Of a stretch of DNA of 64,000 bases, positions 47,389 to 62,265 are shown one piece after another. The notes below the pieces were generated by a model. It worked only from the letters and a program-made list of their open reading frames with translations, made no database searches and was not told the origin of the DNA. Location of the stretch: positions 32,001-96,000 of IMG/VR virus record IMGVR_UViG_3300038415_000014; one strand, written 5' to 3'. The stretch's first letter is position 1. Every line of letters begins with the position of its first letter. The DNA is from a virus. The translations under genes and the position numbers were made by a program.

Positions 47389-49011
47389 CTACTTGCCTGG
47401 GTCCAGGACTCCTTCATCAATCAGCCGCCCAAGAAGATAGTCCGGGTCCGCGTAGGGCTCGTCTTCTCGTACCAGGAAGTAGCGAAGAGTTGGATCGGAG
47501 TGAATGAGGTTCTCCTTGATCCGGTCACGCTCTTGGAGCGCGAAGAACTGAGCCTCGTCTTTGAAGTAGAAGTTGGGGAAGGTCCAGTGTTGGTAACCAT
47601 GGAACTCAACCACCAAGTTGAACTTAGGGAAATACCCATCATAACGGAAAGACCACCCTGTGATCGGGTTCACTGCCCACTTTGGGGACCACTCGACCTC
47701 GTAGGCCGCTCCACCCAGAACCTGGGATAGGTTCTCCAAACATAAAGCTTCTTGAATATGCTTCCTAGATACCTCTAGCCCATGACGTTCGCACTCACGC
47801 TTGATAGTCACGAAGGCATGGTCCAGTGCGGCCATCGCTCTCCCAACTGAGATCTTTCCGTTCTTGAGCTTGAATGAGCTGAGCAAGTCCTTGTCTAGTT
47901 GAATTAGATCAACGGACCTCCAGAACTTCGTTGACCGAATCTCCTTCATGGAGGTAGCTAGCTTTTCAGCGGCCCTTGCTATCGATGGATCTGTGTCCTT
48001 GGTATGCCCTAACTTCCAACCAGCAGAGTTAGACATATTTCTTTTAGTTTCTTCAGTCTTGACTCGAATTAGAGAGTTGAGAGCGATGACTTGGGTTCCA
48101 GGGAAGACCTTTTGGTACTCACCCTCTAATTCTGGATGGGCATTACGAATGTGACTCACCAAGCTCTCAGCACGGTAACCACAAGCTTGGCAAGTCACAT
48201 AGTCTAGGCCCTCCACAAGAGTAGACCACCGGAGTTCCTCATCCAACTCAATGCAATCAGGACATCTTGACTCATGCATCCCAGGAGCGAAGGTCAATCC
48301 TACAAGTCGAGGTTTATTGCATGAGGGGCATCGAATCTCCTTAGTCAGACCCTTGCGAGGATTCTCTTGGTGCTGACGAGTAGCGATCTCAGATCTTGCT
48401 GATTTTAGGTTTTCTGATTGGACTTCAGCATTGGAGAACTTAGCTCGATACTCAACAATACTCAGGCTATGTCCAGAAGACACATGACGATCAATTCGAA
48501 CACCACGATGTCCACAGATTAAGCATCGAACGAAGTCAACACCTTCTTCTTGTCCAGCCCATACTGAGTCTTCTTGGGCTTCTTGATACTTGTCGTGCTC
48601 TCTGTCGTCAACCTGGGCAAGGTGCATAGCCAAACCCTTGATCCCTACACATCCCTGGTTACAGACCGGGCAAGTCCTATCCACCCCTCGTTCAGACTCT
48701 GAGCAAGTAGCACACAGAAGCTTTGTTGAACGAGCTTTTCGAATAAGGTTGACCTGGATGGAAGCCCCGCATGATATACAAGACTCAGTAACCTTCCTGA
48801 CTTGGTAAGTTGAACCCTTCTTGGAATGCCCTACAGCTGCTGCAGCCTTTGATTGGAGTCTCTTACCCCTAGTATCGAAAGCTTCCTTACCAAACCACTC
48901 AACCCATTGCTTTCGGAGGGTATTCGGGCTCGTCTTGAGACGAGCTGCTACTGCCTTGAAAGGCTCTTCAGTGTCAAAGGCCTGATGCGCCAACGTCCTC
49001 TTGTCCGTCAT
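47389..49011 (-). CDS. Putative homing endonuclease: HTH, multiple zinc fingers, NUMOD3-like motif and Vsr/DUF559-like nuclease
   Basis: C-terminal FRYDGYFPKFNLVVEFHGYQH...ERDRIK; C2H2-like CLICG...RHVSSGH and CQACG...SHIRNAH; start set at ATG 49011 below the promoter. Confidence 0.75.
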   Translation of the reverse strand: MTDKRTLAHQAFDTEEPFKAVAARLKTSPNTLRKQWVEWFGKEAFDTRGKRLQSKAAAAVGHSKKGSTYQVRKVTESCISCGASIQVNLIRKARSTKLLCATCSESERGVDRTCPVCNQGCVGIKGLAMHLAQVDDREHDKYQEAQEDSVWAGQEEGVDFVRCLICGHRGVRIDRHVSSGHSLSIVEYRAKFSNAEVQSENLKSARSEIATRQHQENPRKGLTKEIRCPSCNKPRLVGLTFAPGMHESRCPDCIELDEELRWSTLVEGLDYVTCQACGYRAESLVSHIRNAHPELEGEYQKVFPGTQVIALNSLIRVKTEETKRNMSNSAGWKLGHTKDTDPSIARAAEKLATSMKEIRSTKFWRSVDLIQLDKDLLSSFKLKNGKISVGRAMAALDHAFVTIKRECERHGLEVSRKHIQEALCLENLSQVLGGAAYEVEWSPKWAVNPITGWSFRYDGYFPKFNLVVEFHGYQHWTFPNFYFKDEAQFFALQERDRIKENLIHSDPTLRYFLVREDEPYADPDYLLGRLIDEGVLDPGK

Positions 49012-49044
49012 GGTGTCCCAACCACTATAGTACAAGAGGACGTT
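48992..49044. repeat. Perfect 13-bp inverted repeat enclosing the -10 box, RBS and start codon
   Basis: aacgtcctcttgt (48992-49004) and acaagaggacgtt (49032-49044), 27-nt loop. Confidence 0.9.
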
Positions 49045-49099: not shown

Positions 49100-52000
49100 T
49101 CAGATACTTGCGCGCAGATTGAATGTCAGGACCAAATAGAGCAATGGGAAGATTGGTTGATAGTACGCTTCAGCATCCAATGTAGTTGGGTCATTGGCAT
49201 CAACCGTAGCCGAGATGCCGGTGAAGGCAGCCACGATCTCTTGCTGAATCAACTGCTTGAAGAACGAAGTCAGGCTGACTTCAACCTCGTTGGTCCTCGT
49301 GGACAAGAACTTGGTACCCACGAAGGCATCGAGGATCGACCTGGAACCCTTGGACACGTAGTCCGCGATCTGGGTCACCGTCGGCAGCCTGGTCAGGACC
49401 GAGGTCATGTTGGTCGTGAGACCCTGACGAATCCTGATGATGGGCTGCAGGTCTTCGAGGACTGTGATACCAGCGACAGCCGTCTGATTGGCCTCGACCG
49501 GATCCATGATCCTCGGGATTCGAGTGAACCCTTGGATATGCCTGTGCGTGTACGGGGTGGCTACGTCGACCGCCGGTGAGCAAACCGCGCCTGCTACTGC
49601 AGCCGCGTAGAACGTACCGTCAACCAACGACTCGTAGGTGTTGCCCAACTCGTCGGTGAATGTGACCACACCTGAATCTGGGTAGAGCGCTACAATCCTT
49701 GAGCTGAAGAGGTTCCTTGCAACCGTCTGAGCTGAGGTCGGAGTAGTACCACTCGCGAAGCCAATCATGCCCATTCGCTCTGACTGGTTGCGAATGTTGC
49801 TCATGACTTCACAATGCTGGGTCAGATACGAGTAGACCGAAGTGTCCGTGCTGAGTGGTACGAGCACATCGGGCTTGATGTTTCCCGGCAGAGGAGTGGC
49901 CAAGCCTTGGATTGCCGCGATGAAGTCGGCAGCTGACCCTTGGTTTGTATTAGTGACCTTCTTGACCTGGGTGATGCCTACCAAGACTGCTCCGTTGAGG
50001 ATCGCCAGGTACGCAGCCAGGGTGACCCGGTTGGTAGAGTTGAGCTCACCGTAGTTGGCTTGGATGGTCTTGAACGTCGTGTAGATCTTCGACGAGAAGT
50101 CCTGCTTCATGTACAGGTAACTGATGTAGTAGTAGTCACCATTCGCAGGTTCCAACCCGCTTGGGTTGAAGGTCTGGACGTTGGCCGTATCGTTCACCCC
50201 AACACCAACGGTATTGGTGACGATGGTCTCCAACCCCGGGATGTAGTAGTACGGAACCCCTGGGTTGACCAAAAAGGTCTGGGAGATGACTAGGGTGAAG
50301 GTACCATTCGTTGCGTACGGGGTTGTAGGAGCCGTTGCACACGGTAGGATCGTGAACCTCAGACCTGTAACAGCATCCATGTAGGTCTGTCCCGGGATAC
50401 CGGTACCAGACGAACCATTCGGGTTCGAGGATGTTACTACGAAGTTGTTGGTTGCACTCTCACCATTGTCACCGGAGGTACCCGGTACGATCCCAGTCCC
50501 AGCAGTAGAGTTGAATGCCGAGTGAGTACCATCGACGAATCCAACACTTGAGGCTACTGCGCCCACCGTAAGTGACTCAATAGTCAGATAGGTCTGATTA
50601 TTGATAACATCCGGATAGGCTACACAACCATTCACATTGGGGGTCGGAGAACCAGACCACGAAGTGACCGCAAAGTTAGCTGTACCCATGAGGGCATCAA
50701 CAACCTCTTGGACGCTCACCAAGGTCTGACTGGCAGACTGACCCTCAGTATACCCTAGGACTGAGTTGGCAGTACCACCTTGGATCAGAACAGCTGACTG
50801 AGGTGAGTTGTTACTGCTGGTGATCCTGACCTTGTTCAGATTACCCAAGGTAGCATCTGAGGCTGCGCCTTGAGACGTGATAACCGAGGTGATCTGGCTC
50901 GCAATCACTCCAGCCGATTGCGATTGAATATCAACCGCAACAGTACCGGCGAAGGTTGTGTCAGGTACGATACTCAGAGAGGCAGTCGATGACGCTGTAA
51001 TAGTAAACGTAGTCGTCGTATTGACTGCTGTTTCAGTGACTCCACCGAATGACAGCGTTACCCCAGTAGTTCCTGAGGTAGGAACAACGGTAAGGGTTAC
51101 CGTGTATACTGCACCGATGATCGCTGCCATCGGATTGGTTAAGGCTGCTGTATTACCACTTGTATGGGTGAAGGTGGGGTAAGGCCCCGCCCAGCCAGTA
51201 CCTGTAACCCAACCTGTGGTAGGCGTTATCTCGTTGCTGAGGGTGACCTGGAAGTCAACTCCGTTGACCCTAACCTTGAACACATCGTTCAAGCCAGTGG
51301 TGATATTGAACGGACCTGGGATAGACCCGAGCAAAGTAGCTGGCTTGTTGATCGCACCTGGGGTTCCAGAAGCAGTCTGGAACGTGGTGAACCCGAGGAG
51401 AGTCTCCGCTGTACCCTGATCAATGGTGACACTACTCTTCTGGTCGAAACCACCAGGTAGTGATGCCGGAGTCGAGTATCCTCGAATCACGAAGAAGGTG
51501 CTGCTCGACCCAGGACCTGGGATTGGTGTAAACAGGTAATTAGGAGCCGTTCCTGAGAACGCGGCGTTGGCATCGATGACGCCATTGACTGCTGTTGCTA
51601 CCCCAGCTGGGGTAATCGTACCTGCAGACAACGAAACCGCGATAGCCACTCCGTCAATGGTGAGGTTGAGGGTAGCCCCTCCAACCGGTATGGTGATGTC
51701 CCCACCACTCAGTGGAACTTCCTGGCTCACCAAGTAAGCTCTGGCAGCTGAGCTCAACAGAGTAGTTACTGGGGTTCCATTGACATTGGTCCTCCAGGTA
51801 TCTGAGGCGCCACTGTAGAACGAATAGGGCTGGGCTCCTAGGTTCGTGTATACAGCATTACGGGCTACCGTTTGACCGAAGGTGACTGTGACAGTCTCAC
51901 TCACCGGGGTCCCACCAACATGCATGGCATCTGGGATCTGCTCGACTCCCCGCGGCCACTGAACGGTCTGAGTGAGACCTCCGCCCTTGGTTCCAAAACG

Positions 52001-53707
52001 AACTTGGTACAGACCTTTGTTGAACAGGGTCGAGAACACGTTGTACTGACCAACCCCAAGCGGTCCTGGAACCGTATTGGTGAGGATGTACGTGTCGTCT
52101 ACAATCCTGTTGTAATAGAAGGTGGCGTAGACATTCCAATCTGGTGGTAGCGCAGTCTTGAGGGTGATCTTCTGGTTGGGTCCGTCAACCGCGAGTACGG
52201 TTGCCGCCGGACGACCAAGAGCATCTTCAAGAGTCCTACCCACACGAGCCACAACGAGGTCGGGTCGGTTCGTGACCAGGTCCTGACGGTTGTTGGCAAC
52301 CGCGTTGAACAAGGACTGCCCAAGAACTGTGTCACGCCCGTTACCTGTTGTAGGAATCTCAGGTAGGAGGAACACGGTGTTGCTGACAACCGCCGGGACC
52401 ACCGTAGTGTCAACGAACGGGGCGCATTGTACTAAGTACAACTTGTCATCAACCAGGGTCGGAACAATCTGCGAGGAAGCGAAAGGTTCGGTCCCAGGAG
52501 TGTTCAAGGTCGAGGACACCGAGTAGCTAGTTCCCCAATGAACGATTGAGACGTCTGGGGTCGGGTTCACGACTACGAAGTCTTGGTTCTGGATGTAGTC
52601 TGAACGACCAGCGCTGATACCACAACGAATGACGCTCGTCACCAACGTGTTGGGGAGGTAGTCGAACGTATCCTGCCAAGTATTGGCCCAGTAGTTGATC
52701 GTGACCACGGAGCCAGGAGGGGGCGCCAGAGCCAGGGTAACAATGCCATTAGTCCCGTCTACTGCGGTCGGGATGACCTGGACATTGTTGACCTTGACCA
52801 CGACCTTAGAGGTGTCCGTGGTAGTGATGCCGCCAGAGGTTCCGTCTACGATGGGGCGTTGAAACACTCGGAACTGAGTATTGCCATTTGCAGATTGACC
52901 TGCAGACAACCCGAGGATGCCATTGATCGTCCCTGACCCGATACTCACTGAGGAGGCTGCTGTTAGGACCAGATGATTGAGACCTTCGTTGTCCGTAAAC
53001 ACCGAAGTCTGGAGTCCAACAATAGCAGCTGCGTCGATTTGATTCTTCAAGCTCAAAGCTGTTGAAGACCCAGCAATGAAAGTAACAGTCGTGGAGGACC
53101 CACCGTTCACTCCGACAATCAGAGTATCGTTGACACTCGCCACGATGACGAATGGCTCGAACCCTGGGGTCGTGATAGATGGGTTGACCGACGATACCTG
53201 AGCGGATACATCGTCCGTGAAGGCGGTGTCGCCTCGGTGAAAGTAATAGGTGACCCGGACTGTGTCCGTTGGTTGCGGGGGAACTTGAAGGGTGATCTCA
53301 CCCAAGGATCCAAGCACACTTCCAATAGCCACCGGGCTACCATTCACGGTCACGGTTACGGATCGAACATCATTAGTGACGCGGCCCATGCCTTGGCCGT
53401 CTACTATCGGGATGTTGCGAACTTGGAAGGTTACCCGAGTCCCATCATTTGCCCCAAGAACTGGGTTGTTGGGGTTCGTGTTGTCCACGATCCAGCGCAA
53501 GGTTACGTCTTCACTGACGATCTGTTCATCGAGCGTAGACGAAGAACCGCGCACCATTTCGAGGTCATCTTGCTCCAGCTCTTCCTGACCGACACCAATA
53601 ATGAATGGTAGTCGGAGGCCAGCAATGAGCGAAGCAACGTTTGCCTCGGTCAGAGTGCGGGAGTAAACACCTGGAGGAAGGTATGTCGCGAAAGGGCCGA
53701 AACTCAT
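49100..53707 (-). CDS. Tail sheath protein, 1535 aa with large inserted domains
   Basis: N-terminal PGVYSRT...IIGVG; C-terminal IRIRQGLTT...VTQIADYVSKG...FVGTK...YYQPIFPLLYLVLTF; GGAG RBS. Confidence 0.92.
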   Translation of the reverse strand: MSFGPFATYLPPGVYSRTLTEANVASLIAGLRLPFIIGVGQEELEQDDLEMVRGSSSTLDEQIVSEDVTLRWIVDNTNPNNPVLGANDGTRVTFQVRNIPIVDGQGMGRVTNDVRSVTVTVNGSPVAIGSVLGSLGEITLQVPPQPTDTVRVTYYFHRGDTAFTDDVSAQVSSVNPSITTPGFEPFVIVASVNDTLIVGVNGGSSTTVTFIAGSSTALSLKNQIDAAAIVGLQTSVFTDNEGLNHLVLTAASSVSIGSGTINGILGLSAGQSANGNTQFRVFQRPIVDGTSGGITTTDTSKVVVKVNNVQVIPTAVDGTNGIVTLALAPPPGSVVTINYWANTWQDTFDYLPNTLVTSVIRCGISAGRSDYIQNQDFVVVNPTPDVSIVHWGTSYSVSSTLNTPGTEPFASSQIVPTLVDDKLYLVQCAPFVDTTVVPAVVSNTVFLLPEIPTTGNGRDTVLGQSLFNAVANNRQDLVTNRPDLVVARVGRTLEDALGRPAATVLAVDGPNQKITLKTALPPDWNVYATFYYNRIVDDTYILTNTVPGPLGVGQYNVFSTLFNKGLYQVRFGTKGGGLTQTVQWPRGVEQIPDAMHVGGTPVSETVTVTFGQTVARNAVYTNLGAQPYSFYSGASDTWRTNVNGTPVTTLLSSAARAYLVSQEVPLSGGDITIPVGGATLNLTIDGVAIAVSLSAGTITPAGVATAVNGVIDANAAFSGTAPNYLFTPIPGPGSSSTFFVIRGYSTPASLPGGFDQKSSVTIDQGTAETLLGFTTFQTASGTPGAINKPATLLGSIPGPFNITTGLNDVFKVRVNGVDFQVTLSNEITPTTGWVTGTGWAGPYPTFTHTSGNTAALTNPMAAIIGAVYTVTLTVVPTSGTTGVTLSFGGVTETAVNTTTTFTITASSTASLSIVPDTTFAGTVAVDIQSQSAGVIASQITSVITSQGAASDATLGNLNKVRITSSNNSPQSAVLIQGGTANSVLGYTEGQSASQTLVSVQEVVDALMGTANFAVTSWSGSPTPNVNGCVAYPDVINNQTYLTIESLTVGAVASSVGFVDGTHSAFNSTAGTGIVPGTSGDNGESATNNFVVTSSNPNGSSGTGIPGQTYMDAVTGLRFTILPCATAPTTPYATNGTFTLVISQTFLVNPGVPYYYIPGLETIVTNTVGVGVNDTANVQTFNPSGLEPANGDYYYISYLYMKQDFSSKIYTTFKTIQANYGELNSTNRVTLAAYLAILNGAVLVGITQVKKVTNTNQGSAADFIAAIQGLATPLPGNIKPDVLVPLSTDTSVYSYLTQHCEVMSNIRNQSERMGMIGFASGTTPTSAQTVARNLFSSRIVALYPDSGVVTFTDELGNTYESLVDGTFYAAAVAGAVCSPAVDVATPYTHRHIQGFTRIPRIMDPVEANQTAVAGITVLEDLQPIIRIRQGLTTNMTSVLTRLPTVTQIADYVSKGSRSILDAFVGTKFLSTRTNEVEVSLTSFFKQLIQQEIVAAFTGISATVDANDPTTLDAEAYYQPIFPLLYLVLTFNLRASI

Positions 53708-53762
53708 GATAAATCTCCTGACTCAAATAGTCTGAACAGGTCTGATTTCGATTTGATCTTAG

Positions 53763-53784
53763 AAGTAGCCTGTCAAGGCTACCT
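53763..53784 (-). promoter_or_regulatory. Stable hairpin in the sheath leader region
   Basis: GTAGCCT-TGAC-AGGCTAC perfect 7-bp stem, extendable by G-U and A-U pairs; weak U tract. Confidence 0.5.
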
Positions 53785-53884
53785 AATAGATAGAACAGTG
53801 GTTCATCTGAGTCTGGATTTACATTTCATGCCCGGCCCTTAGAACCGGATGAACTTCTTAACTTTGACTACGCGGAACAAGACT

Positions 53885-54322
53885 TTATTGGGCGGGCTTC
53901 CCTGGCTGTTGTCTTTCGATGTCCACAGCCAGATCTACAAGTTTTGCGCGAGCATCCAGTTGAGGCTGGCCCATTGCTGCATAATCTGTATAGCCGTCAC
54001 CATCTAGTCGCTCAAGAGCAGCACTCCCACCAACCTGCCTCACTTGCTTCTTGACTTTATCCCTCTCCCGATAAGTAGCCCATCGAGCCTCAGCACTTCT
54101 ACCGACTACCTTGTCTGCACTTGGGTAGTCTTGATCATGGACTCCTGAGTTAGCTGGGGCAGTACCACCAGCGGCGAACCCGAATCCGAAGGCTGACTTA
54201 TCAAACAGCCTAGGTGCTTCCTCCTTACATGAAGGGCATGGGTGAGTTGGGTGGTCCCCCATCTTCAAAGTACGGTCAAACCTAGTCGAGCATTGTTGAC
54301 ACTCGAAGGTGTAGCGAGGCAT
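53885..54322 (-). CDS. FmdB-family zinc-ribbon protein
   Basis: MPRYTFECQQC...CPSC...RLF. Confidence 0.8.
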   Translation of the reverse strand: MPRYTFECQQCSTRFDRTLKMGDHPTHPCPSCKEEAPRLFDKSAFGFGFAAGGTAPANSGVHDQDYPSADKVVGRSAEARWATYRERDKVKKQVRQVGGSAALERLDGDGYTDYAAMGQPQLDARAKLVDLAVDIERQQPGKPAQ

Positions 54323-54334
54323 ATTGAACCCCTT

Positions 54335-55498
54335 TCATCCGATCCGTTCGTAATTTGCATTTCGCCCAGGTATAGTGGGCGTAGTATTGAAGAAAAGTGA
54401 AGCTTGTGAGAGAGCTTGGATGCTTGGGGTTCCATCCGACTTCGTGTATGCCGACACTTTACTGATCGTGTACGGTATCGGGATATGCATCTCCCAGTCA
54501 GATTGAATCTGAACTGTCATCGAGGAATTGTAGTAGTACAACTCGGCGGAGTCATCGTAGATCTCTTCTGACTCACCACCCATCGAAGTATCCATCACTT
54601 CGAGGCCCTCAAAGGACAGAGCGCTACGCTTCTCTCCCCAGAGGTACATGAGCACTAGGTCAGCGATCTCCTCCGACTGCATTGGGTCCCGAGAGATCAC
54701 ATCGAGGTCGAATGATATATCGAACCGTCCACCATAGGCTTGCGCGGTCTCTACTCGATCCGAGTACACGACGATGGCTTGCTTGTCACCAGTCTTGCCC
54801 CTCTTACCAAAGGCGAGTACCACACCAGGAAGGGTCTTCCAGTCCGCCATGTTCCAAGCCCACCTGATAGGACCAATCGAGGGGGCCGCATACCGGTATC
54901 CAGCTGTGACTATGGTCCCAGGGAAGAAACCACTCTTGAAAGTGATCTCTTGGTTAGCATAGTCAACAGTATAGTCTGAACCCTCAACAAGCAATTGGTT
55001 TCGGTTCGCCCACAACCTCAGGGTTCCTTGGACGGGCTGATTCTGGATAGCGGCTGAGATTACAACTCCAGATTGAGTTTGAATGATTGGCTCATCGTTA
55101 ACCGTCAGAAGAGGGTCAATGATGAACTCCCCAAACTCCCCAGGCATTGTAGGGGCCGAAAGACACTCTATATAGTAGACCCCAGCGGGGATAGGCATCC
55201 CCCCGCACTCCTTGACCTTGTTCAGATCCTCTCTGACCCACTCAAGTAAGTAGGCTGGCTCATTGTAGTACGTCAACATGACGTGGCTCTCAATGGTTCC
55301 AAGGAAGTTCTGAGGGGATACTTGAACCTTGTTCGCAGAGGACCCCTTCACCACGATGCCATACTGAGGTCGCTCGTCAAAGGCAAATCGATTCTGTATA
55401 AACGGTACGATCTTTTCGAAGACAGGATGCCTAGAAAAGCTGTCCTGCAACTCAAGTATGAGCCGGCGCTTCAACGAGGATATCAGGTAGAAGTACAT
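54335..55498 (-). CDS. Tail terminator/completion protein with inserted beta domain
   Basis: FDISFDLDVISRDPMQSEEIADLV...YYNSSMTVQIQSDWE; position before the sheath. Confidence 0.6.
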   Translation of the reverse strand: MYFYLISSLKRRLILELQDSFSRHPVFEKIVPFIQNRFAFDERPQYGIVVKGSSANKVQVSPQNFLGTIESHVMLTYYNEPAYLLEWVREDLNKVKECGGMPIPAGVYYIECLSAPTMPGEFGEFIIDPLLTVNDEPIIQTQSGVVISAAIQNQPVQGTLRLWANRNQLLVEGSDYTVDYANQEITFKSGFFPGTIVTAGYRYAAPSIGPIRWAWNMADWKTLPGVVLAFGKRGKTGDKQAIVVYSDRVETAQAYGGRFDISFDLDVISRDPMQSEEIADLVLMYLWGEKRSALSFEGLEVMDTSMGGESEEIYDDSAELYYYNSSMTVQIQSDWEMHIPIPYTISKVSAYTKSDGTPSIQALSQASLFFNTTPTIPGRNANYERIG

Positions 55499-56535
55499 CA
55501 GTCCTTGTACTCATGGCCAGCGAGAACCAACAACCCATCGGCTACCGCATCCAAAGGTCGCTCAACCCTGAATACCTTCGAGATTGGGATTGGGAATCCC
55601 TTCTTCCTGATGGTGTTGAACTCCTCATTGAACACATCCATGAAGCCACCGGCTAAAGAAGTACCTCCAGAGACAACTAGGGGTATCTCATCCAAGTGAT
55701 CGTTTTGCTCTTGCTTGACTCTCTCAGAGATCTTCTCTAGACAATGACGGATCATCGTCCTGACATATAAGGATATTGCTTCAAGATCAGCATTTCCAAC
55801 CGGTGGAGTTGCGAGGTTGAACCCACCCTTCTCTTTCAGGGTACACATCCTCGCCGCTGTTGACCCGACTGCCTTTGCTGAGTGCAGGTCAACCCAGTCA
55901 CCACCACCTCGGGCGATGGAGAAGTTCAATCCCTTGATGCCATAAGAGGCAAGGGCCACATTGCACAAACCTGACCCAAACGAAATAGCTAACCCAGAAA
56001 ACTCAGTGTCAAAGCACTGAGAGTAGATGATGGCCATAGCCTCATTCGTGGACTGAGCCTTGTAACCAAGTCTAGTGATGATCTGATTGAACGAGTTTTC
56101 ATGGAACTTTACATCCTGATCCGGAAGGTCAATGGGGTCAGCTGGAACACTGTAGAAGCAGGGCTCATCCTTGCACGCCGGCTTACCTAATACGTTCTCG
56201 ATTAGGTTGTTGAGGACATGCTGAGCCTTTATGGCTCCTGGAGAGATCAATCCCTTGGAGAGGGGCCGCTTGACCTCCTGCTTGAACAAGTTTGCCATTT
56301 GGAAAGACTTGTCCCCGATGACTACGACTTCGCTTTGCTCCGGGAACTCTACGAAGGTGATGTTACTCATCTTCAGAGTCTTTTCATTCTCGGCATCAAT
56401 CTCGATATAGGCGTCTTTGACCCTCTTGTGATCGATCCCACCACTCTCATCGTACCTAGCGGCTACGAAGTTCATGGTACCTACATCCAAGCCTACTCCT
56501 AATGACTTATCTGACATCTGGGTATTCCTTTTCAT
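55498..56535 (-). CDS. Actin-fold ATPase, volactin-like
   Basis: GLDVGTMN (phosphate 1), NEAMA (connect 1), ISFGSG (phosphate 2), ARGGGDWVD, VVSGGTS (adenosine), PLDAVADG (connect 2). Likely start is ATG 56517. Confidence 0.88.
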   Translation of the reverse strand: MKRNTQMSDKSLGVGLDVGTMNFVAARYDESGGIDHKRVKDAYIEIDAENEKTLKMSNITFVEFPEQSEVVVIGDKSFQMANLFKQEVKRPLSKGLISPGAIKAQHVLNNLIENVLGKPACKDEPCFYSVPADPIDLPDQDVKFHENSFNQIITRLGYKAQSTNEAMAIIYSQCFDTEFSGLAISFGSGLCNVALASYGIKGLNFSIARGGGDWVDLHSAKAVGSTAARMCTLKEKGGFNLATPPVGNADLEAISLYVRTMIRHCLEKISERVKQEQNDHLDEIPLVVSGGTSLAGGFMDVFNEEFNTIRKKGFPIPISKVFRVERPLDAVADGLLVLAGHEYKD

Positions 56536-56551
56536 CTAATTTGATTGGGTT

Positions 56552-57253
56552 TTATGTTAATCGCTGTCTAAGGAGGTAGAGGTGACCCTCATGCTTGTCT
56601 TCGATGCCGGCCAACATGTTGTCGACACCCCGAGACAGGTCTCCCCTCTCCTTCATAACCTTGGCGATCTCAGTCATACAAGCCATGAACTCACTCTCAG
56701 CTAAAAGACTGACTTCAAGGTATGCTTTCGGGTTCTCACCCCCAGGGTTGGCTACTCCATCCCCACAGAACTTCTTGACGATGTGAGCTACGATGCAGCT
56801 CTGAAGACCTGGATGCATCTTGTCCAGTGGGACTCCGGTCCCTACAGCCTTCTCTGCCACCCCGTCTATATCCTCAGCGGTCTGATTGTACAGGCGCTCA
56901 AACAAGAGGTGGTCAGCGAAGTAGGTCTCACCGTAGGTCAACCAATGGTGGTACTGGTGGATGGTGGCGAGCGCCTTCAGGAAGACAAGAGCTGTGGGAA
57001 GCCCGTAACCAACCCCATGAGCCATCTTGGCAGCAGTCGCCACCAAGGACCTTGTCGAGGCTTGCTTGTCTAGGCGAACCTTCATTCCAGGAAGGTAGGG
57101 CGGTCCGTGGAAGAATGGGTTGTATGAAGACGGGTCCTGCCAAATGACGAAGGTCGCATCATCCGGAGGAGTACCCGGGTTGCTGACCCCTGGGTGATCC
57201 GGGGTCGGTGAGAAGGAAGGGTCCATCCCAGCAGTCTTCCAACGCGGGTCCAT
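56552..57253 (-). CDS. Dps/ferritin-like four-helix protein with N-terminal extension
   Basis: HQYHHWLTYGETYFADHLLFERLY...IDGVAEK and DNMLAGIEDKHEGHLYLL; start at the TAATG overlap (57253). Confidence 0.75.
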   Translation of the reverse strand: MDPRWKTAGMDPSFSPTPDHPGVSNPGTPPDDATFVIWQDPSSYNPFFHGPPYLPGMKVRLDKQASTRSLVATAAKMAHGVGYGLPTALVFLKALATIHQYHHWLTYGETYFADHLLFERLYNQTAEDIDGVAEKAVGTGVPLDKMHPGLQSCIVAHIVKKFCGDGVANPGGENPKAYLEVSLLAESEFMACMTEIAKVMKERGDLSRGVDNMLAGIEDKHEGHLYLLRQRLT

Positions 57254-58119
57254 TAGGCTTTTCCTAGGCGTTGTTCTAGTTGTTTGGCTACAATGGTACA
57301 TTCTTTGGCCAAACCAAGTATCTCTGGCTGTACCTCGGTCATCACGAAGGTCGGGTCTTCAGTGTGACCAACCCCGATCTGTTGCATCCTCTTTGAGCGC
57401 TGTTCGCACTCCTTCAAAGCCTTGATAATCTTGTCGTACTGCTCTTTGAGAGCCTTAATCGCTGGGTGATCCTCACCCTCTTTGATGATCTCAGCTGCTA
57501 ACTCCCATTGTTCCTGAGAGGTCGCGCTCTTGGCTACTGGTGTTGGAACAGCAGACTTCTTCGGTACGTTGTAGTTCACCTCGAACTGAGCTGTATCCTT
57601 GAGGCGTTCCGCGAGTTCCTCTGGACCCATACCCTCATCCTGAAGTGTGGTAGCAAAAGCTGGGTCGTACCCTTTGGCTGACAACATAGTCTGCATTTCT
57701 TGAAGGAACTTACTTGCAGGATCTGGGGCTACCTCCAACTTCAGCTCTTTGCCCACCTGACTCAGAGTGAACCTCTGAGGCTTGGCCGGGAACGTCTTGC
57801 CAGTGAACGGGGACTTGACCGTACCGGTCAACCGCTGATCACAGTAGAAGTCCCTGCCCTCGGGGTCCACATAGCGCCAGAGGGACCCTTTAATCTTGGC
57901 ATCCCCAGCCCGAAGCTCTTTGCCAATGTCACTCAGAGATTGACGAATCGGCTTTGGGGTGAAAGCCCTACCGGTGAACGGAGAGCGAATCGTACTCGTA
58001 ATGCGCTCCGAGAGATAGAACACGATCCCTTCGGTGTCCACATACTTCCAAAGTATTGCGGCAGCTATCTTCTCAACGATGGACCCTACCCGATTTAGAA
58101 GTCTGTCCTTGGCGCTCAT
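57253..58119 (-). CDS. Hypothetical protein with a duplicated 48-aa domain and C-terminal helical bundle
   Basis: LW(K/R)YVDxEG..FY...SPFTG..F..KP....S..GKEL twice with 57-aa period. Confidence 0.75.
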   Translation of the reverse strand: MSAKDRLLNRVGSIVEKIAAAILWKYVDTEGIVFYLSERITSTIRSPFTGRAFTPKPIRQSLSDIGKELRAGDAKIKGSLWRYVDPEGRDFYCDQRLTGTVKSPFTGKTFPAKPQRFTLSQVGKELKLEVAPDPASKFLQEMQTMLSAKGYDPAFATTLQDEGMGPEELAERLKDTAQFEVNYNVPKKSAVPTPVAKSATSQEQWELAAEIIKEGEDHPAIKALKEQYDKIIKALKECEQRSKRMQQIGVGHTEDPTFVMTEVQPEILGLAKECTIVAKQLEQRLGKA

Positions 58120-58153
58120 GGTCAATCTCCGTAACTGTCAGATCCTAAGTACA

Positions 58154-58822
58154 TTAACTACGCTTCCCCTTGCGTAAGTTCTGGAGTGCTTTGCCCGCGG
58201 CCTGTGCAGCGCTCCCGTCAACCTTGTCCTCTTTAACGACCATCTTCTTGGTGGGACCGAAGGTTGGAACAAAGACCGGTATATCTTCTTCCACTGCTGG
58301 CTTAGTCGGAAGTACCTCACTCGAACTAGCTTGGATCACAACCCTACTCGGAAGGTTATCGATCTTGCTCAGAATTGTGGACAACTTTGAGTCTTCCTCT
58401 TTGAGCTTTGTAATCTCGGTTCGAAGTTGGTTACTCTCTGCCAATAACCTGCCGCATTCAGCACGAGATTCCCCTAGATCTCTAGTCAGCCTCTGAACCT
58501 CAGCGGATGAAGCCATCAACTCGACCATGGCTTTTTGAATTGTGGCCCTCAGCTCTACCAACTCAGTTGAGTCAGGTGGTGATTCAACTGATCCCTCGTG
58601 TTCACTTTTCGGCTGAGTCGATAGGGTGCTATCCAACCTTGGGTTTGAATCAAGCTTGATGATACGCTTTTGAGACATGAACCTGCCCAAGTCTCGCGAG
58701 TCACAGGCTAGGTTACCTGGAATCGTAATCGGACGCCCTCGTGGTACACTAAAGTGTATATCCTCGATGACTAGATCCTCTCTAACGGCTTGAACAATCA
58801 TATCGCCTTGGCTCGGAGTCAT
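58154..58822 (-). CDS. Coiled-coil protein
   Basis: Long heptad segment ELVELRATIQ...LSTILSKIDNL; ATGA overlap with the neck gene. Confidence 0.7.
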   Translation of the reverse strand: MTPSQGDMIVQAVREDLVIEDIHFSVPRGRPITIPGNLACDSRDLGRFMSQKRIIKLDSNPRLDSTLSTQPKSEHEGSVESPPDSTELVELRATIQKAMVELMASSAEVQRLTRDLGESRAECGRLLAESNQLRTEITKLKEEDSKLSTILSKIDNLPSRVVIQASSSEVLPTKPAVEEDIPVFVPTFGPTKKMVVKEDKVDGSAAQAAGKALQNLRKGKRS

Positions 58823-59325
58823 GACATTCTGATCACTTTCTTAGCTGCATTTTTAGCGGCCATCGCAACCTCAGACACGATGGCCTTTCTGATTTGGGTC
58901 TTGGCTTCCTTCTTTGCCTTCTCAATGAAGTCGTAAGGTGGACGTCCTGGGTGTATCCACTTTCCGTCTTTCATCGATTTGATGGTCGCCGATCTGAAGA
59001 TTAACTCACCTTGTTCAGTGATAATAGGAATAGGAGCCCGAGCCTTGGTCAACCACCTCATTTGACCCTTGCGCTGTCCTCTCATCAAGTGTGTGAAAGC
59101 AGGGTGCTTAGAGTAAAATGTAATCGATGAGGGCCCGGTCTCTACCATGAGGGACTTGGAGAGAGCTTTCTTGGCTCGATCTGAAAAGGTGGATTGGACC
59201 AGCTTGTCCCGTAACCTACGAAGTACACTATGCTTTACCCGATTCAGGGCATTATCCGGACTAGCCCCCAAGCCTCGAAGGAGGGGCTTACCGTAGAGAG
59301 AGGCTAGCTTGTATTCTTGAGCCAT
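58819..59325 (-). CDS. Neck protein, HK97 gp10/Ne1-like
   Basis: Basic 168-aa protein with WIHPGRPPYDFIEKA motif; follows the head-closure gene. Confidence 0.6.
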   Translation of the reverse strand: MAQEYKLASLYGKPLLRGLGASPDNALNRVKHSVLRRLRDKLVQSTFSDRAKKALSKSLMVETGPSSITFYSKHPAFTHLMRGQRKGQMRWLTKARAPIPIITEQGELIFRSATIKSMKDGKWIHPGRPPYDFIEKAKKEAKTQIRKAIVSEVAMAAKNAAKKVIRMS

Positions 59326-59327
59326 TA

Positions 59328-60677
59328 TCAGTAGTTAGAGTTCTTCCAAGCCAAAGTGCGCCCTCGGTACTGGCGTTCCTTCGGAGTATTGGGATCATCT
59401 GTGATGCGCTCGGAGGCTTCATACTCAGGGCCACTCGGGGCAAACTGGGTTGCCGCAAACTTGATGGGGTTGCCCACAGGGACTTGATACCGAATGTCCT
59501 TCTCGTCGAAACAGTTGATTGTAAAGTGCTGTTGTAGGACTGTCCCACGATTCGAGGGCCTTCTCACAGCTCCGATACTGTAACGGTCCCCATCAATCTT
59601 CAGGATGAAGTCCCTCTGGTTGAGGATCGGTTGCGGGCCTGTGAAGACTTCATACGAGGTAGCTACTGTCCGTCCTGACTCGACCTGGGTTATCTTGACC
59701 TCTGCATCAGGTGGGGCAATGAGGATCTCGTAGGGTCCCTCGTAGCCGCCGATTATCCCAGTCGCGTAGCACTTCAGACAATCCCCCAGGGGTTGCTTGT
59801 GGGTCTGGTCATAGCAAGGGCATTGAATACCAACGACCTTCTGTAGGTAGACCTTCACGCGCTCGCCACCCTGTTCGAGAATCCAACGGTTGCGTCGAAT
59901 TGCTTCCCTCCAGTAGTTGTCGAGCTTCTCGACCTCCAGAGTGTTGGTAGCCGTAGCGTGCGCTAGAGGGGTCTCCACCAGGCTATCAGGGGTCGCTTCA
60001 GCCCAATTGCTCGTGACAGGGTAGCCCACGGTTGTGACTCGATAGAAGATACGCTGAGCTAGGTCCGTCTTCACGAGATCCCTCGTGTACCGATAGGTAC
60101 ACGTTACCCGACTCGTGGAAGTCGGGATCACTGGGATGATGTTCTTCTGGAGAGCGGTATCCATGTAGACGTGGGCGTCGATCTCGATTTCCCCAGTCTG
60201 CCCGTTCACCCAGAAAACCTTGGCCTCTACCCCATCCACGTAGACCCTGACTTCATGCGGGCTGTTGGTTGGGATTCCACGAGCTGCCTCTCCTACGATG
60301 GGGTACCTGTCTGTCTTGAACACATAGCGCGGCCCATCCTGCCCAGTAGCCTGAGTCCCAAAGAGGATGAACGAGTCCGTGACGTCTTCTTCGATTATCA
60401 GCTCGTTATCGGTCTGGTCCTGCCAAAAAGTTGATCCAATGGGGAGTTCTGTGATCCTCTTGTAGGGGCCAAACTCTGAATCAAAGCTACGATAGACGTT
60501 GACCCCCAACAGCTTGAATCGGCTATTCAACATGAGGATAGATGGGTCATCCCATTGGAGGTTGATAATCCCAACTAACCCACTCGACATGAACAGATTC
60601 AACGGCGGAGCTGGCCAAGGGATCTTGGTCAGCTCCGTAAGTCCCGGCGTCCTGTCACGATTGCTCACATCCGCCAT
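59328..60677 (-). CDS. Head-closure/head-tail joining protein with FN3-like N-terminus and Zn-binding insert
   Basis: WILEQGGERVKVY...CPC...CLKC...GYEGP...RDFILKIDGDRYSI; PAPPLNL...QWDDP. Confidence 0.55.
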   Translation of the reverse strand: MADVSNRDRTPGLTELTKIPWPAPPLNLFMSSGLVGIINLQWDDPSILMLNSRFKLLGVNVYRSFDSEFGPYKRITELPIGSTFWQDQTDNELIIEEDVTDSFILFGTQATGQDGPRYVFKTDRYPIVGEAARGIPTNSPHEVRVYVDGVEAKVFWVNGQTGEIEIDAHVYMDTALQKNIIPVIPTSTSRVTCTYRYTRDLVKTDLAQRIFYRVTTVGYPVTSNWAEATPDSLVETPLAHATATNTLEVEKLDNYWREAIRRNRWILEQGGERVKVYLQKVVGIQCPCYDQTHKQPLGDCLKCYATGIIGGYEGPYEILIAPPDAEVKITQVESGRTVATSYEVFTGPQPILNQRDFILKIDGDRYSIGAVRRPSNRGTVLQQHFTINCFDEKDIRYQVPVGNPIKFAATQFAPSGPEYEASERITDDPNTPKERQYRGRTLAWKNSNY

Positions 60678-60735
60678 GTTGAGTAGTCCTCACTAAGGGC
60701 TCCCAATAAGGTGAAGTTTGAGCATGCTACCTGAA

Positions 60736-61074
60736 TCAACCCACAGGGGTGTTCGGCGCCGATTGACCCGACCTGATACTATCAAGCTCAGCTTGAGTGA
60801 GGGCCTTGAGTTGTCCTGTAGCTGAGTCAATCGAAACCGGTTGATTCGGAGACAACCCACGCTCAATGAGAACCCTCTCGAACAACTTCTGGCGCTCGTT
60901 ATCAATCGCACTGGCTGAACGGATCAATTTGACCCTCTCCAGCTCAATGTCCAACAAGCGGTCACCTACTCGAAGACGAGACTCGTTGAGTAAGTTGAAT
61001 CGACCCTTGGTCTCGTCATCGACTGGGTCATCTATAGTAAGTCGCTTCTTCTCTGGGTCAATCTGGGTATCCAT
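60736..61074 (-). CDS. Small helical hypothetical protein
   Basis: ATG 61074 with GGAG upstream; coiled-coil-like core. Confidence 0.6.
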   Translation of the reverse strand: MDTQIDPEKKRLTIDDPVDDETKGRFNLLNESRLRVGDRLLDIELERVKLIRSASAIDNERQKLFERVLIERGLSPNQPVSIDSATGQLKALTQAELDSIRSGQSAPNTPVG

Positions 61075-61118
61075 CTGAATATCTCCCGAAACGGTAACAG
61101 TCACTTCCAACAAGTAGA

Positions 61119-61334
61119 TTAGTCAGGGCATCCTGCGCACCCTCTACGGATGATGTAGGAAATGGAAGGGGCTTGGTCTGGTACTAATTGCAGAACCCCA
61201 TTGACAAACCTGAGTTTGACCAATCTAGCCCCTCTTAGCTTCAACTTGTCGGTACCTTCATTGACTGCACTCAAGCACTTACCAAGGTCATCCGGTAACA
61301 GCACTTCATTGCACTCAAAGGGTACTGGGAACAC
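61119..61334 (-). CDS. 71-aa hypothetical protein
   Basis: Fills the gap on the coding strand; GTG start; ends GCAGCPD. Confidence 0.4.
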   Translation of the reverse strand: MFPVPFECNEVLLPDDLGKCLSAVNEGTDKLKLRGARLVKLRFVNGVLQLVPDQAPSISYIIRRGCAGCPD

Positions 61335-61368
61335 GAGTGAGTATACACCAAGAGTAGTCGTTCACTCA

Positions 61369-62262
61369 CTACACCCCTAGGAACTTTGAAGGGGCTAGAA
61401 CACCTCGTCCCACGTAAGGACCAAAGCTCGACCTGATACCAGCCCCGTACTTGGGCTGCTGTAAGCCCTTGATGTATTTCACGGTAGCCTTGGCGCGCTC
61501 TAGCTGCTTGTCGAATTGATCAGCAGCCCCTTGCTTCAAGGACTCATACTTGCTTGACTTGTCCAAGTTCAAACTGACCCCACCAATGGAGTAATCGAAC
61601 TCGTCAGCGATCCAATTGGCTTGGAGAGCCCCAATGGCATGAACCTGAGCCCCCATTAGAAGAAGGGTTCTCCACTCAGGCCGTTGCTGCATCAAGTGAT
61701 CTACATGATTGAATGGGGTTCGAGGAGGAGCTGCAATAACCATGTCCAAAGCAAAGTCTATGAATTGAGCAAGCTCTTCACTTTCCCAGATGTAACCAAA
61801 GACCTTGCTAAATTGGTCGATAGTCTCTTCGTGGGCTGGAGGGCGGAACTTGTAGTTCCGGTCCGGGTTCGCATCTCGGAGCATGAACCTCAAGTTTTTG
61901 ATTAGCTCAATCTGGTAACCTGAGAAGAAGTCGTTGGGTGTCGCCACCTCACGATCCTGGATGTTGAACTCTTGCACCACCGACTGAAGAGGACCACCCA
62001 GCATCTCGCGCATGGTCCACCGGACTCGATAGTCTCCAATGTTAGCATCGAGTGGGACAACCAAGCTAACGAAGTACTCACCTATGGAGGAGTTGACCGG
62101 GATCCTCCTCTGGGGGCCAACGAGCACCTCTTGCCCAGTGGTATTGTCGTAGATGGCGTAGTTGATCTCTGCCGCATTGACAGGGTGGCCAGAGGAGTTG
62201 GTCAAGAAGATGTTCAGATCACTACGACCCAGTTGCTGACCTCTTAGAAACGAAGTTCCCAT
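61369..62262 (-). CDS. Head-tail adaptor with N-terminal Ig-like domain
   Basis: LRFMLRD...YIWESEELAQFIDFAL...FDYSIGGVSLNLDKSSKY adaptor-like pattern. Confidence 0.6.
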   Translation of the reverse strand: MGTSFLRGQQLGRSDLNIFLTNSSGHPVNAAEINYAIYDNTTGQEVLVGPQRRIPVNSSIGEYFVSLVVPLDANIGDYRVRWTMREMLGGPLQSVVQEFNIQDREVATPNDFFSGYQIELIKNLRFMLRDANPDRNYKFRPPAHEETIDQFSKVFGYIWESEELAQFIDFALDMVIAAPPRTPFNHVDHLMQQRPEWRTLLLMGAQVHAIGALQANWIADEFDYSIGGVSLNLDKSSKYESLKQGAADQFDKQLERAKATVKYIKGLQQPKYGAGIRSSFGPYVGRGVLAPSKFLGV

Positions 62263-62265
62263 GTA

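What the first reader, a model, noticed from the sequence alone, without database searches (positions are those of the whole stretch)
55498..56535. Phage-encoded volactin-like actin coupled to the tail terminator gene
Seen: all actin-fold ATPase motifs, plus family-type strings GLDVGTMN, ANLF..EVKRPLSKG, YSVPADPID, NEAMAIIYS, GLAISFGSG and FSIARGG.DWVD. From memory these closely parallel haloarchaeal volactin (Haloferax cell-shape actin) rather than MreB, ParM or FtsA. Its TGA overlaps the terminator ATG, so it should be made with virion proteins. Established: some jumbo phages use tubulin PhuZ, and a few phages use Alp actins, to position DNA or capsids. Inference: a late actin filament system for virion assembly, transport or host reshaping in a bacterial host.
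Basis: partly seen in the sequence, partly recalled or inferred. Interest (0 to 1): 0.88.

Follow-up and report, generated by a model that had tools for sequence, protein, structure and literature searches.

The report
Huge-phage volactin-type actin with adaptor
A roughly half-megabase uncultured phage carries, between its neck and tail-terminator genes, a well-conserved actin of the "volactin" family and a coiled-coil partner predicted to grip it, so these phages probably build their own actin filaments; no paper I could search describes this.

Summary
On the minus strand, 55498-56535 (likely start 56517, 339 aa) encodes a full-length member of Pfam Volactin (PF25216, E 1e-58). The model (pLDDT 94.6) is closest to the MamK and BeeR filament structures. 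Its TGA shares one base with the ATG of the next gene, and that gene's model has the tail-terminator fold (T5 p142, lambda gpU, Mu, T4 gp15).

The window lies in a 183.5-kb IMG/VR contig, estimated 38% complete. Complete relatives are 435-529 kb, carry one volactin gene each and have no tubulin.

The order g449, g168, coiled-coil protein, [g290], [Dps-like], actin, terminator, Zn-ribbon, 1,400-1,700-aa protein is collinear in 65 of 65 testable loci. The phage actins form their own clade (support 99), separate from the haloarchaeal, Omnitrophota and Magnetococcales branches.

The coiled-coil protein (58154-58822) ends in a conserved A..AL+.LRK tail that is predicted to dock on the actin (ipSAE 0.70; best control 0.01).

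Most likely this is a late-expressed, filament-forming phage actin with an adaptor. The cargo is unresolved. This scan has noted the same system on other DNA (121 notes in at least 102 genomes). I found no paper describing it.

The parts
55498..56535 (-). Volactin-family actin (345 aa from the first ATG; likely start 56517, 339 aa)
   Evidence: PF25216 E 1.1e-58, full length. 35% identity, E 4e-68, to a Haloferax denitrificans orthologue. AF2 model pLDDT 94.6. MamK filament Z 28.4, rmsd 3.0 over 296 residues; BeeR filament Z 26.8. AAGGA precedes the second ATG.
58154..58822 (-). Coiled-coil adaptor candidate (cc222): N-terminal beta-rich domain, coiled coil, P.FIPS motif, C-terminal A..AL+.LRK tail
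   Evidence: Alignments A5 and A6. A tail pattern finds it in 58 of the 69 loci with enough upstream DNA, and it lies directly before the actin in the distant loci L007, L081, L088 and L089. Docking prediction: ipSAE 0.70, best control 0.01. Only coiled-coil Pfam hits.
57253..58125 (-). g290, protein with an internal 171-nt (57-aa) duplication; function unknown; present in about half of the relatives
   Evidence: Direct repeats D1 and D2 spaced 171 nt apart. BLAST detects it in 41 of 82 loci. No Pfam or PHROG match.
56552..57301 (-). Dps/ferritin-like protein with a conserved N-terminal peptide W.DP..YD...GPPYLP (likely start 57253, 233 aa, sharing one base with the g290 stop)
   Evidence: Weak matches to Ferritin, DpsA and phrog_3636. 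A4 shows invariant HQ.HHW ... DHLLFERLY ... AE residues and the N-terminal peptide. The public call in a relative is 233 aa. Found in 67 of 82 loci.
54335..55498 (-). Tail terminator protein with an inserted beta domain (about residues 131-204)
   Evidence: AF2 model pLDDT 80. VIA-align matches: phage 812 neck Z 14.8, Pa193 neck 13.2, GTA 12.7, T5 p142 terminator 12.5 (rmsd 3.5 over 139), lambda gpU 10.8, Mu terminator 10.9, T4 gp15 9.3. The insertion explains the weak DUF2460/TIGR02217 hit. Found in 78 of 82 loci, always after the actin.
53885..54322 (-). Zn-ribbon protein (145 aa), conserved after the terminator
   Evidence: PF09723 Zn_ribbon_8, E 4.9e-10. Found in 74 of 82 loci.
49100..53707 (-). 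Giant conserved protein (1535 aa), probably the tail sheath; evidence is weak
   Evidence: Weak Phage_sheath_1C match at the C-terminus, E 0.003, seen in 3 of 26 orthologues; DUF2460-like N-terminal domain in 23 of 26. It sits after the terminator. Found in 77 of 82 loci at median 61% identity. No PDB sequence match.
58819..60677 (-). g168 (58819-59325) and g449 (59328-60677): conserved upstream genes, presumed neck or head-completion genes, not identified
   Evidence: Found in 68 and 66 of 82 loci, collinear. Only weak PHROG 'virion structural protein' hits. Profile searches of the PDB gave nothing.

Best explanation
The gene encodes a filament-forming actin of the volactin family. It is a fixed, vertically inherited gene of a clade of roughly 0.4-0.6 Mb tailed phages. 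It lies in one tightly packed same-strand block with the neck, tail-terminator and probable sheath genes, so it is most likely made late, together with virion proteins (inferred). It works with the coiled-coil protein encoded two genes upstream. That protein probably dimerises through its coiled coil, binds an unknown cargo with its N-terminal domain, and inserts its conserved C-terminal tail (strand 197-203 plus helix 206-216) along the edge strand 33-38 of the actin and into the groove formed by the C-terminal helix (333-341) and residues 171-179. That mode resembles the way ParR grips ParM and would tether filament ends to the cargo. Given the fixed position between the neck and tail genes and the absence of a nearby centromere, I take the cargo to be a virion assembly intermediate or assembly site (heads, tails or their joining), which would be positioned or moved by polymerisation. 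Shown: family membership, fold, conservation and synteny. Predicted: adaptor docking. Inferred: polymerisation, timing and cargo.
For: Family: PF25216 E 1e-58; 35% identity to Haloferax orthologues; shared motifs including the S.G.G phosphate-2; monophyly with the haloarchaeal volactins against MreB and MamK-like proteins, support 99. Nucleotide-site residues D17, G19, T20, E165, G187, G189, G290, G291 and G334 are invariant or nearly so across 80 diverse homologues. Fold: pLDDT 94.6; the best matches are filament formers, MamK Z 28.4 and BeeR Z 26.8; profile against the PDB gives MamK at 1e-15. Relatives polymerise: volactin forms dynamic filaments anchored at the membrane by their tips (PMC10869688); Mad28, which has the same Asp-to-Ser phosphate-2, polymerises in vitro and forms filaments in E. 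coli (PMC10653835). Conservation: 1,099 clusters at 90% identity, many on 280-570 kb contigs; 271 IMG/VR loci; collinear in 65 of 65 loci; median 53% identity, similar to the terminator (57%) and g1535 (61%); the phage clade has support 99. Three complete 435-529 kb relatives and LR745208 each have one volactin gene and no tubulin. Inteins sit at several sites in the nucleotide-binding loops of family members. Adaptor: present in nearly all loci with a conserved tail. Docking score 0.70 against a best of 3 controls of 0.01; that mark was reached by 58 of 80 solved complexes and 2 of 110 mismatched pairs (these counts hold only roughly, because my own alignments were used); the runs agree in at least 91% of contacts; partner pLDDT is at least 66. 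The actin helix 330-339 is almost invariant in the phage clade. Operon: 1-nt overlaps or short gaps between genes, and promoter- and terminator-like sites are no more frequent than in shuffles.
Against: Polymerisation is inferred from relatives that are only 35% identical or less. The docking is a model's confidence, not a measurement, and solved actin-peptide complexes such as ParM-ParR could bias it. The cargo is unknown: the adaptor's N-terminal domain matches nothing. Other family members are fused to ParB-HTH or HU DNA-binding domains, which points to DNA rather than virion parts. The stop/start coupling to the terminator gene is present in only about half of the relatives. The upstream 'neck' genes and the 'sheath' are not firmly identified.
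Confidence: 0.5

Rival explanations
1. A ParMRC/AlpAC-like DNA-moving system. The adaptor's N-terminal domain binds phage DNA, and the actin pushes or positions replicating or packaging-ready genomes, or partitions a plasmid-like prophage.
For: The architecture is the same as ParM-ParR and AlpC-AlpA: an actin plus a dimeric adaptor with a C-terminal actin-binding tail (PMC5539076 for AlpAC). Other volactin-family proteins are fused to ParB-HTH (P0170, P0213) or HU (an Atlas cluster of 69 members). An Omnitrophota homologue lies next to a ParA-like gene. A Dps-like, possibly DNA-binding, protein is encoded right before the actin.
Against: There is no iteron or centromere-like repeat array within 9.5 kb. 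No DNA-binding domain is detectable in the adaptor. The gene sits in the virion morphogenesis block, not among replication genes, in 65 of 65 loci.
Confidence: 0.25
2. Host-cell remodelling. The phage actin replaces or perturbs the host MreB-type cytoskeleton, changing cell shape or size as volactin does in Haloferax, to make room for very large virions.
For: Volactin is a cell-shape determinant (PMC10869688). Mad28 localises according to cell curvature (PMC12713370). The fold is close to MreB.
Against: The dedicated phage-encoded adaptor and the fixed position among neck and tail genes point to a phage cargo. No membrane-targeting element was noted in the actin or the adaptor; this was not formally tested.
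Confidence: 0.1
3. A non-polymerising actin-fold ATPase that acts as an assembly chaperone (Hsp70- or EutJ-like) for neck or tail proteins.
For: Its position inside the assembly operon. A weak EutJ match (NCBIfam 7e-4). Hsp70 homologues are the top hits among viral models.
Against: The best sequence and fold matches are filament formers, not Hsp70 or sugar kinases. The characterised relatives in the family polymerise. There is no substrate-binding domain.
Confidence: 0.07

Closest known systems
Volactin (VolA, HVO_2015) of Haloferax volcanii; Pfam PF25216 (PMC10869688)
   Same: Same Pfam family, with a full-length match. 35% identity to Haloferax orthologues. Shared motifs: GLDVGTMN, RRP..G.IS, YS.PADPID, NE.MA.IYS, SFG.G, ARGGDWID, SGGTS..GF. 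Volactin filaments are dynamic and tip-anchored, which fits an adaptor that binds filament ends.
   Different: Encoded by a phage rather than an archaeon. The phage sequences form a separate clade. The gene lies among virion genes and has a phage-specific coiled-coil adaptor. A role in cell shape is unlikely. The phage clade has four invariant cysteines (C126, C174, C191, C231).
Mad28, second actin of deep-branching magnetotactic bacteria (PMC10653835, PMC12713370)
   Same: The papers describe the same unusual phosphate-2 (S.G.G in place of D.G.G) and an altered connect-1 motif. Mad28 polymerises in vitro and works within a network of coiled-coil proteins. Cellular homologues at about 35-37% identity come from MAGs of Omnitrophota and Magnetococcales, groups that include magnetotactic bacteria.
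   Different: I had no Mad28 sequence by reference, so membership of Mad28 in PF25216 was not tested. Mad28 organises magnetosomes, not virions.
MamK (PDB 5ljv, 5jyg) and BeeR (8r2n)
   Same: The closest solved structures: Z 28.4 and 26.8; profile E 1e-15 and 4e-11. Both form filaments.
   Different: 16-19% identity. MamK-like proteins form a separate clade. They have the canonical D.G.G phosphate-2.
ParM-ParR-parC and AlpC-AlpA-alpS (prophage CGP3; PMC5539076)
   Same: An actin plus an adaptor that couples filaments to a cargo. AlpAC is phage-encoded. The adaptor tail is predicted to dock in the groove next to the actin's C-terminal helix.
   Different: A different actin family. No centromere repeats nearby. 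The adaptor has no recognisable DNA-binding fold. The locus is in the late structural operon.
PhuZ tubulin spindle of nucleus-forming jumbo phages (PMC7950403, PMC9067925)
   Same: A phage-encoded cytoskeleton in very large phages. PhuZ positions the replication compartment and delivers capsids, a comparable logistical problem.
   Different: Tubulin fold, not actin. No tubulin is present in this contig or in four full-length relatives (three DTR genomes and LR745208).

Membership tests
Volactin family (Pfam PF25216) | Full-length profile match above the curated cut-off | tested here: met
   199.7 bits against a cut-off of 35, E 1.1e-58, profile positions 3-321 of 321. The same model passes its cut-off in only one of 14 control genomes; Haloferax volcanii is among the four it rings in.
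Volactin family (Pfam PF25216) | Direct similarity to haloarchaeal volactin orthologues over the whole protein | tested here: met
   BLASTP against the Haloferax denitrificans orthologue: 35% identity, E 4e-68, residues 15-342 against 4-324. About 50 Halobacteria loci at 33-36% identity.
Volactin family (Pfam PF25216) | Groups with volactins rather than with MreB or MamK in a tree | tested here: met
   A 72-row clade separated from MreB and MamK-like rows with SH-aLRT 99. Within it, the phage clade (99) and the Halobacteria clade (100) are distinct (quick LG+G4 tree).
Volactin family (Pfam PF25216) | Dynamic filament formation in vivo and a role in the rod-to-disk shape transition | not testable with these tools
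   Needs microscopy and genetics. A role in cell shape is not expected for a phage gene.
Polymerising actin-fold ATPases (MamK, MreB, ParM, actin) | The five nucleotide-binding and hinge motifs of the actin fold | tested here: met
   Phosphate-1 D17/G19/T20, connect-1 E165, phosphate-2 S185/G187/G189 (Asp replaced by Ser across the family), adenosine G290/G291 and connect-2 G334 are conserved in 80 homologues.
Polymerising actin-fold ATPases (MamK, MreB, ParM, actin) | Four-subdomain actin fold closest to filament formers | tested here: met
   pLDDT 94.6. MamK filament Z 28.4 (rmsd 3.0 over 296), BeeR 26.8, MreB about 25, F-actin about 24.5.
Polymerising actin-fold ATPases (MamK, MreB, ParM, actin) | ATP-dependent polymerisation | not testable with these tools
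Polymerisation is inferred only from relatives (PMC10869688, PMC10653835).
ParMRC / AlpACS type DNA-segregation cassette | An adaptor protein whose tail binds the actin | tested here: inconclusive
   Prediction passes: 0.70 against a best control of 0.01. This is a model, not a measurement.
ParMRC / AlpACS type DNA-segregation cassette | A centromere-like repeat array next to the genes | tested here: not met
   No iteron family or tandem array in 53000-62500; only two-copy chance-level repeats and a coding duplication inside g290.
ParMRC / AlpACS type DNA-segregation cassette | A DNA-binding domain in the adaptor | tested here: inconclusive
   No Pfam, PDB-profile or Atlas match for the N-terminal domain in 40 orthologues. 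No fold model was made.
Phage tail terminator (lambda gpU / T5 p142 / T4 gp15 fold), for the downstream gene | Tail-terminator fold | tested here: met
   Z 9.3-14.8 to terminator, collar and cap proteins of many phages, pyocin, GTA and contractile injection systems, covering model residues 1 to about 345 apart from the insertion. Foldseek top hits are phage neck chains.

The most novel reading that the evidence does not exclude
A large clade of 0.4-0.6 Mb phages runs an actin-based transport or positioning system for its own virion parts. Filaments of a volactin-type actin would be coupled, through an end-binding coiled-coil adaptor, to heads, tails or their joining site. This would be the first actin cytoskeleton dedicated to virion assembly in a virus of prokaryotes. 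The same actin-plus-tail-adaptor pairing in Halobacteria, Omnitrophota, Magnetococcales and phages would mark an ancient cytomotive module that spans domains.
Probability: 0.3. Interest if true: 0.85.

Novelty: new variant of a known kind. Interest (0 to 1): 0.72.

Why it matters
The phage cytoskeletons known so far are the PhuZ/TubZ tubulins and a few ParM/Alp-type actins that move DNA. Here a different actin family, characterised so far only as a haloarchaeal cell-shape protein (and probably as Mad28 of magnetotactic bacteria), is a core gene of a widespread clade of the largest known phages. It sits inside the virion operon and has its own adaptor. If it polymerises, huge phages would be solving intracellular logistics with actin instead of tubulin. 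That would give a tractable two-protein system (339 aa plus about 220 aa) for studying how volactin-type filaments engage cargo. It would also widen the family's known range to viruses. The gene is also a handy marker for this phage clade.

Tried and rejected
- PHROGs gave no family for the actin.
- A single-sequence search of the PDB gave nothing. The viral model library (BFVD) holds no close relative, only Hsp70 homologues and phage G gp506.
- The search for related loci with the diverse alignment A1 failed for lack of conserved stretches. The closer alignment A2 worked.
- The adaptor's N-terminal domain gave only coiled-coil noise in Pfam, the PDB profile search and the Atlas. I thought its V.IP....S.DL stretch resembled AbrB/MazE DNA-binding domains, but no scan supports this, so I dropped it.
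- g1535, g449 and g168 gave no useful PDB sequence match. Calling g1535 the sheath rests on a weak C-terminal Pfam hit in 3 of 26 orthologues plus its position.
- Promoter- and terminator-like sites occur at chance frequency.
- No centromere-like repeats.
- No tubulin in this contig or in four full-length relatives.
- No tRNA in the window.
- A haloarchaeal virus or recent transfer from Halobacteria was rejected: the phage clade is separate from the Halobacteria clade, and three MAG contigs with phage synteny were binned with Proteobacteria.
- Literature: 17 papers mention volactin and none of those listed concerns phages. None contains PF25216. The huge-phage paper PMC7162821 mentions tubulin but not actin. 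Other searches found nothing relevant.
Full report
**1. What is at the coordinates**

The ORF at 55498-56535 lies on the minus strand. From the first ATG it gives 345 aa. The second ATG, at 56517, is preceded by AAGGA and is the start used in public gene calls, giving 339 aa. The stop TGA shares one base with the ATG of the next minus-strand ORF, 54335-55498, giving TGATG.

**2. Family**

- Pfam assigns the protein to Volactin (PF25216) over the whole profile: E 1.1e-58, 199.7 bits against a cut-off of 35. No other actin family scores.
- NCBIfam gives only faint EutJ and MamK signals. PHROGs gives nothing.
- BLASTP against the orthologue in Haloferax denitrificans gives 35% identity over 329 residues, E 4e-68.
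- An alignment with haloarchaeal, Omnitrophota, Magnetococcales and Desulfosarcina homologues, a MamK-like protein and MreB shows shared family motifs. These include phosphate-2 S-F-G-x-G, where MamK and MreB have D-x-G-x-G.
- Across 80 diverse homologues the nucleotide-site residues are invariant or nearly so: D17, G19, T20, E165, G187, G189, G290, G291 and G334.

**3. Fold**

- With that alignment AlphaFold2 gives a confident model: pLDDT 94.6, pTM 0.92.
- Foldseek and VIA-align both rank filament-forming actins first: MamK filament Z 28.4 (rmsd 3.0 over 296 residues), BeeR filament Z 26.8, then MreB at about 25 and F-actin at about 24.5.
- A family profile finds MamK at 1e-15 and BeeR at 4e-11 in the PDB.

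**4. What the genome is**

- The window is part of a 183,533-bp IMG/VR virus contig that CheckV estimates to be 38% complete.
- tblastn against GenBank phages finds only two uncultured huge phages: LR745208 (485 kb, 45% identity) and LR756511 (595 kb, 28% identity).
- The 5.8-billion-protein search gives 1,099 clusters. The top 120 all carry PF25216, and many lie on 280-570 kb contigs. The 50%-identity representative search gives 851 clusters.
- Three complete relatives (435, 513 and 529 kb; two are classed as having direct terminal repeats and one as a provirus; all 100% complete by CheckV) and LR745208 each have exactly one volactin gene and no tubulin.

**5. Synteny**

- 271 IMG/VR loci encode a relative, and I fetched the best 80.
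- BLAST of the window's neighbours against their ORFs shows the same order throughout: g449, g168, coiled-coil protein, [g290], [Dps-like], actin, g387, Zn-ribbon, giant protein.
- The order is collinear in 65 of 65 loci that hold g168, actin, g387 and g1535.
- Median identity of the actin is 53%. That is comparable with g387 (57%) and g1535 (61%), so the actin is conserved like the core structural genes.
- The gap between the actin and g387 is 20 nt or less in 38 of 77 loci. Coupling is therefore common but not universal.
- In the window the whole block is tightly packed on one strand. Promoter- and terminator-like sites are no more frequent than in shuffled sequence.

**6. The downstream gene**

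- A model of g387 (pLDDT 80) matches neck chains of phage 812, E217/Pa193, Bas63 and PhiTE in Foldseek.
- In an all-against-representatives VIA-align search it matches tail terminators and related caps: T5 p142 (Z 12.5, rmsd 3.5 over 139 residues), lambda gpU (10.8), Mu terminator (10.9), T4 gp15 (9.3), the pyocin and diffocin collars, PVC/AFP caps and the GTA.
- Residues ~131-204 are an inserted beta domain like those of Dit and tailspike proteins. This explains the weak DUF2460/TIGR02217 hits.
- 'Tail terminator' is thus supported.
- The 1535-aa protein after it is probably the sheath, but only a weak C-terminal Phage_sheath_1C hit supports this (3 of 26 orthologues).
- g449 and g168 remain unidentified.

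**7. Phylogeny and origin**

- A scan of one genome per prokaryotic species found 454 loci.
- The closest are short MAG contigs binned as Betaproteobacteria, Methylobacter and Legionellales. They carry the phage synteny (g449, g387, g1535), so they are phage contigs. This is a weak hint of proteobacterial hosts.
- Genuine cellular homologues follow at 33-38% identity: Halobacteria (including many Haloferax), Omnitrophota, Planctomycetes, Magnetococcales and Desulfosarcina.
- In an 81-row tree rooted on MreB, the volactin family separates from MreB and MamK-like proteins with support 99. Within it, the phage sequences plus the three misbinned contigs form one clade (99), distinct from the Halobacteria clade (100) and from the two bacterial groups.
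- The gene is therefore old and vertically inherited in these phages, not a sporadic host pick-up.

**8. The adaptor**

- The protein at 58154-58822 has a conserved ~60-aa N-terminal domain, a coiled coil, a P.FIPS motif and a basic C-terminal tail of the form [SD].A..AL+.LRK.
- A simple tail pattern finds it between g168 and the actin in 58 of the 69 loci with enough upstream DNA. Several of the 11 misses (for example L048, L065, L077) do hold it but fall outside the pattern. In the most distant loci, which lack g290 and the Dps-like gene, it lies immediately before the actin (L007, L081, L088, L089).
- The complex prediction of the actin (46-row alignment) with adaptor residues 168-222 (40-row alignment) scored 0.70. 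The best of 3 controls scored 0.01. That mark was reached by 58 of 80 solved complexes and 2 of 110 mismatched pairs; these counts hold only roughly because my own alignments were used. The three runs agree in at least 91% of contacts, and partner pLDDT is at least 66.
- Contacts: adaptor residues 197-203 pair with the actin edge strand 33-38. The helix 206-216 lies against residues 171-179 and the C-terminal helix 333-341. From the model's secondary structure I read this as the cleft between subdomains IA and IIA, the site where ParR binds ParM. That comparison rests on my own knowledge and was not tested. A pass shows that the model supports binding, not that binding occurs.
- Helix 330-339 is almost invariant in the phage clade.
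- Similar tails end small proteins next to the cellular homologues, for example A..KLRSM in Magnetococcales, LAKQL in Desulfosarcina and LERLRKLR in Omnitrophota. The pairing may therefore be older than the phages; I did not follow this up.

**9. Function**

- Relatives polymerise. Volactin forms dynamic filaments that touch the membrane with their tips (PMC10869688).
- Mad28 is described as having the same Ser-for-Asp phosphate-2. It polymerises in vitro with ATP-gamma-S and forms filaments in E. coli (PMC10653835). I could not test by sequence whether Mad28 is in PF25216.
- Inteins with LAGLIDADG domains interrupt family members at several different sites in the phosphate-2 loop and the GDW motif, each with C...HN|C junctions. 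Inteins typically sit in conserved, functionally important sites.
- I therefore commit to a filament-forming actin with an end-binding adaptor, expressed with the late genes.
- The cargo is open. The fixed position between the neck and tail genes and the lack of any centromere-like repeats favour virion intermediates or an assembly site. Fusions of other family members to ParB-HTH or HU domains and the adjacent Dps-like protein keep a DNA cargo alive as the main rival.

**10. Novelty**

- Phage cytoskeletons are known: PhuZ tubulin, and AlpC and ParM-like actins.
- In the searchable library I found no paper that reports volactin-family actins in phages.
- This scan itself has noted the same system repeatedly on other DNA: 121 notes in at least 102 genomes.
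- I class it as a new variant of a known kind.

Noticed in passing
proteins P0122-P0269 (representative search); no window coordinates: Many volactin-family proteins of ~470-800 aa are interrupted by inteins. P0123 matches Intein_splicing and LAGLIDADG_3; the others show C...HN|C junctions. There are at least four insertion sites: after the IS of phosphate-2, before C191, after GMVN, and before GDW. Other long forms are a tandem double actin (P0127), ParB-HTH fusions (P0170, P0213) and a fusion to a Wzz/BY-kinase (P0223).
   Followed up: partly
window 56552-57301 (-): A Dps/ferritin-like protein with conserved metal-site-like residues (HQ.HHW, DH..FERLY, AE). It carries a strongly conserved N-terminal peptide W.DP..YD...GPPYLP and often a C-terminal WK/Y.[FY] tail. 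It is present in 67 of 82 related loci, right before the actin. The peptide looks like a docking or targeting signal; its partner is unknown.
   Followed up: partly
window 57253-58125 (-): g290 contains an internal duplication of 171 nt (57 aa) (repeats D1 and D2). It is present in only about half of the relatives and has no family match.
   Followed up: no
window 49100-53707 (-) and 54335-55498 (-): The giant 1535-aa protein and the tail terminator both carry a DUF2460 (GTA distal-tail-protein-like) beta domain, at residues 75-157 and 153-206 respectively. This suggests a shared inserted module in neighbouring tail proteins.
   Followed up: no
window 47389-49035 (-), 43945-47331 (-), 39840-40568 (-): Downstream of the giant protein lie three genes: a 548-aa protein with a ROS/MucR zinc-finger regulator domain, a 1128-aa UvrD-type helicase, and an HNH endonuclease. 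ROS/MucR regulators are typical of Alphaproteobacteria (my own knowledge), which is a faint host hint.
   Followed up: no
L100:3360-8118 (Omnitrophota MAG): This cellular locus has two tandem volactin-type paralogues (347 and 465 aa). Upstream is a ParA-like ATPase, and downstream a 184-aa protein ending in ...LERLRKLRQMKK. It is a possible bacterial counterpart of the actin-adaptor pair, perhaps the Mad28 system.
   Followed up: no
L091, L092, L093 (GTDB MAG contigs): Contigs of 2.7-19 kb binned as Betaproteobacteria, Methylobacter and Legionellales carry the huge-phage neck-actin-terminator-sheath block. They are phage DNA inside MAG bins.
   Followed up: partly
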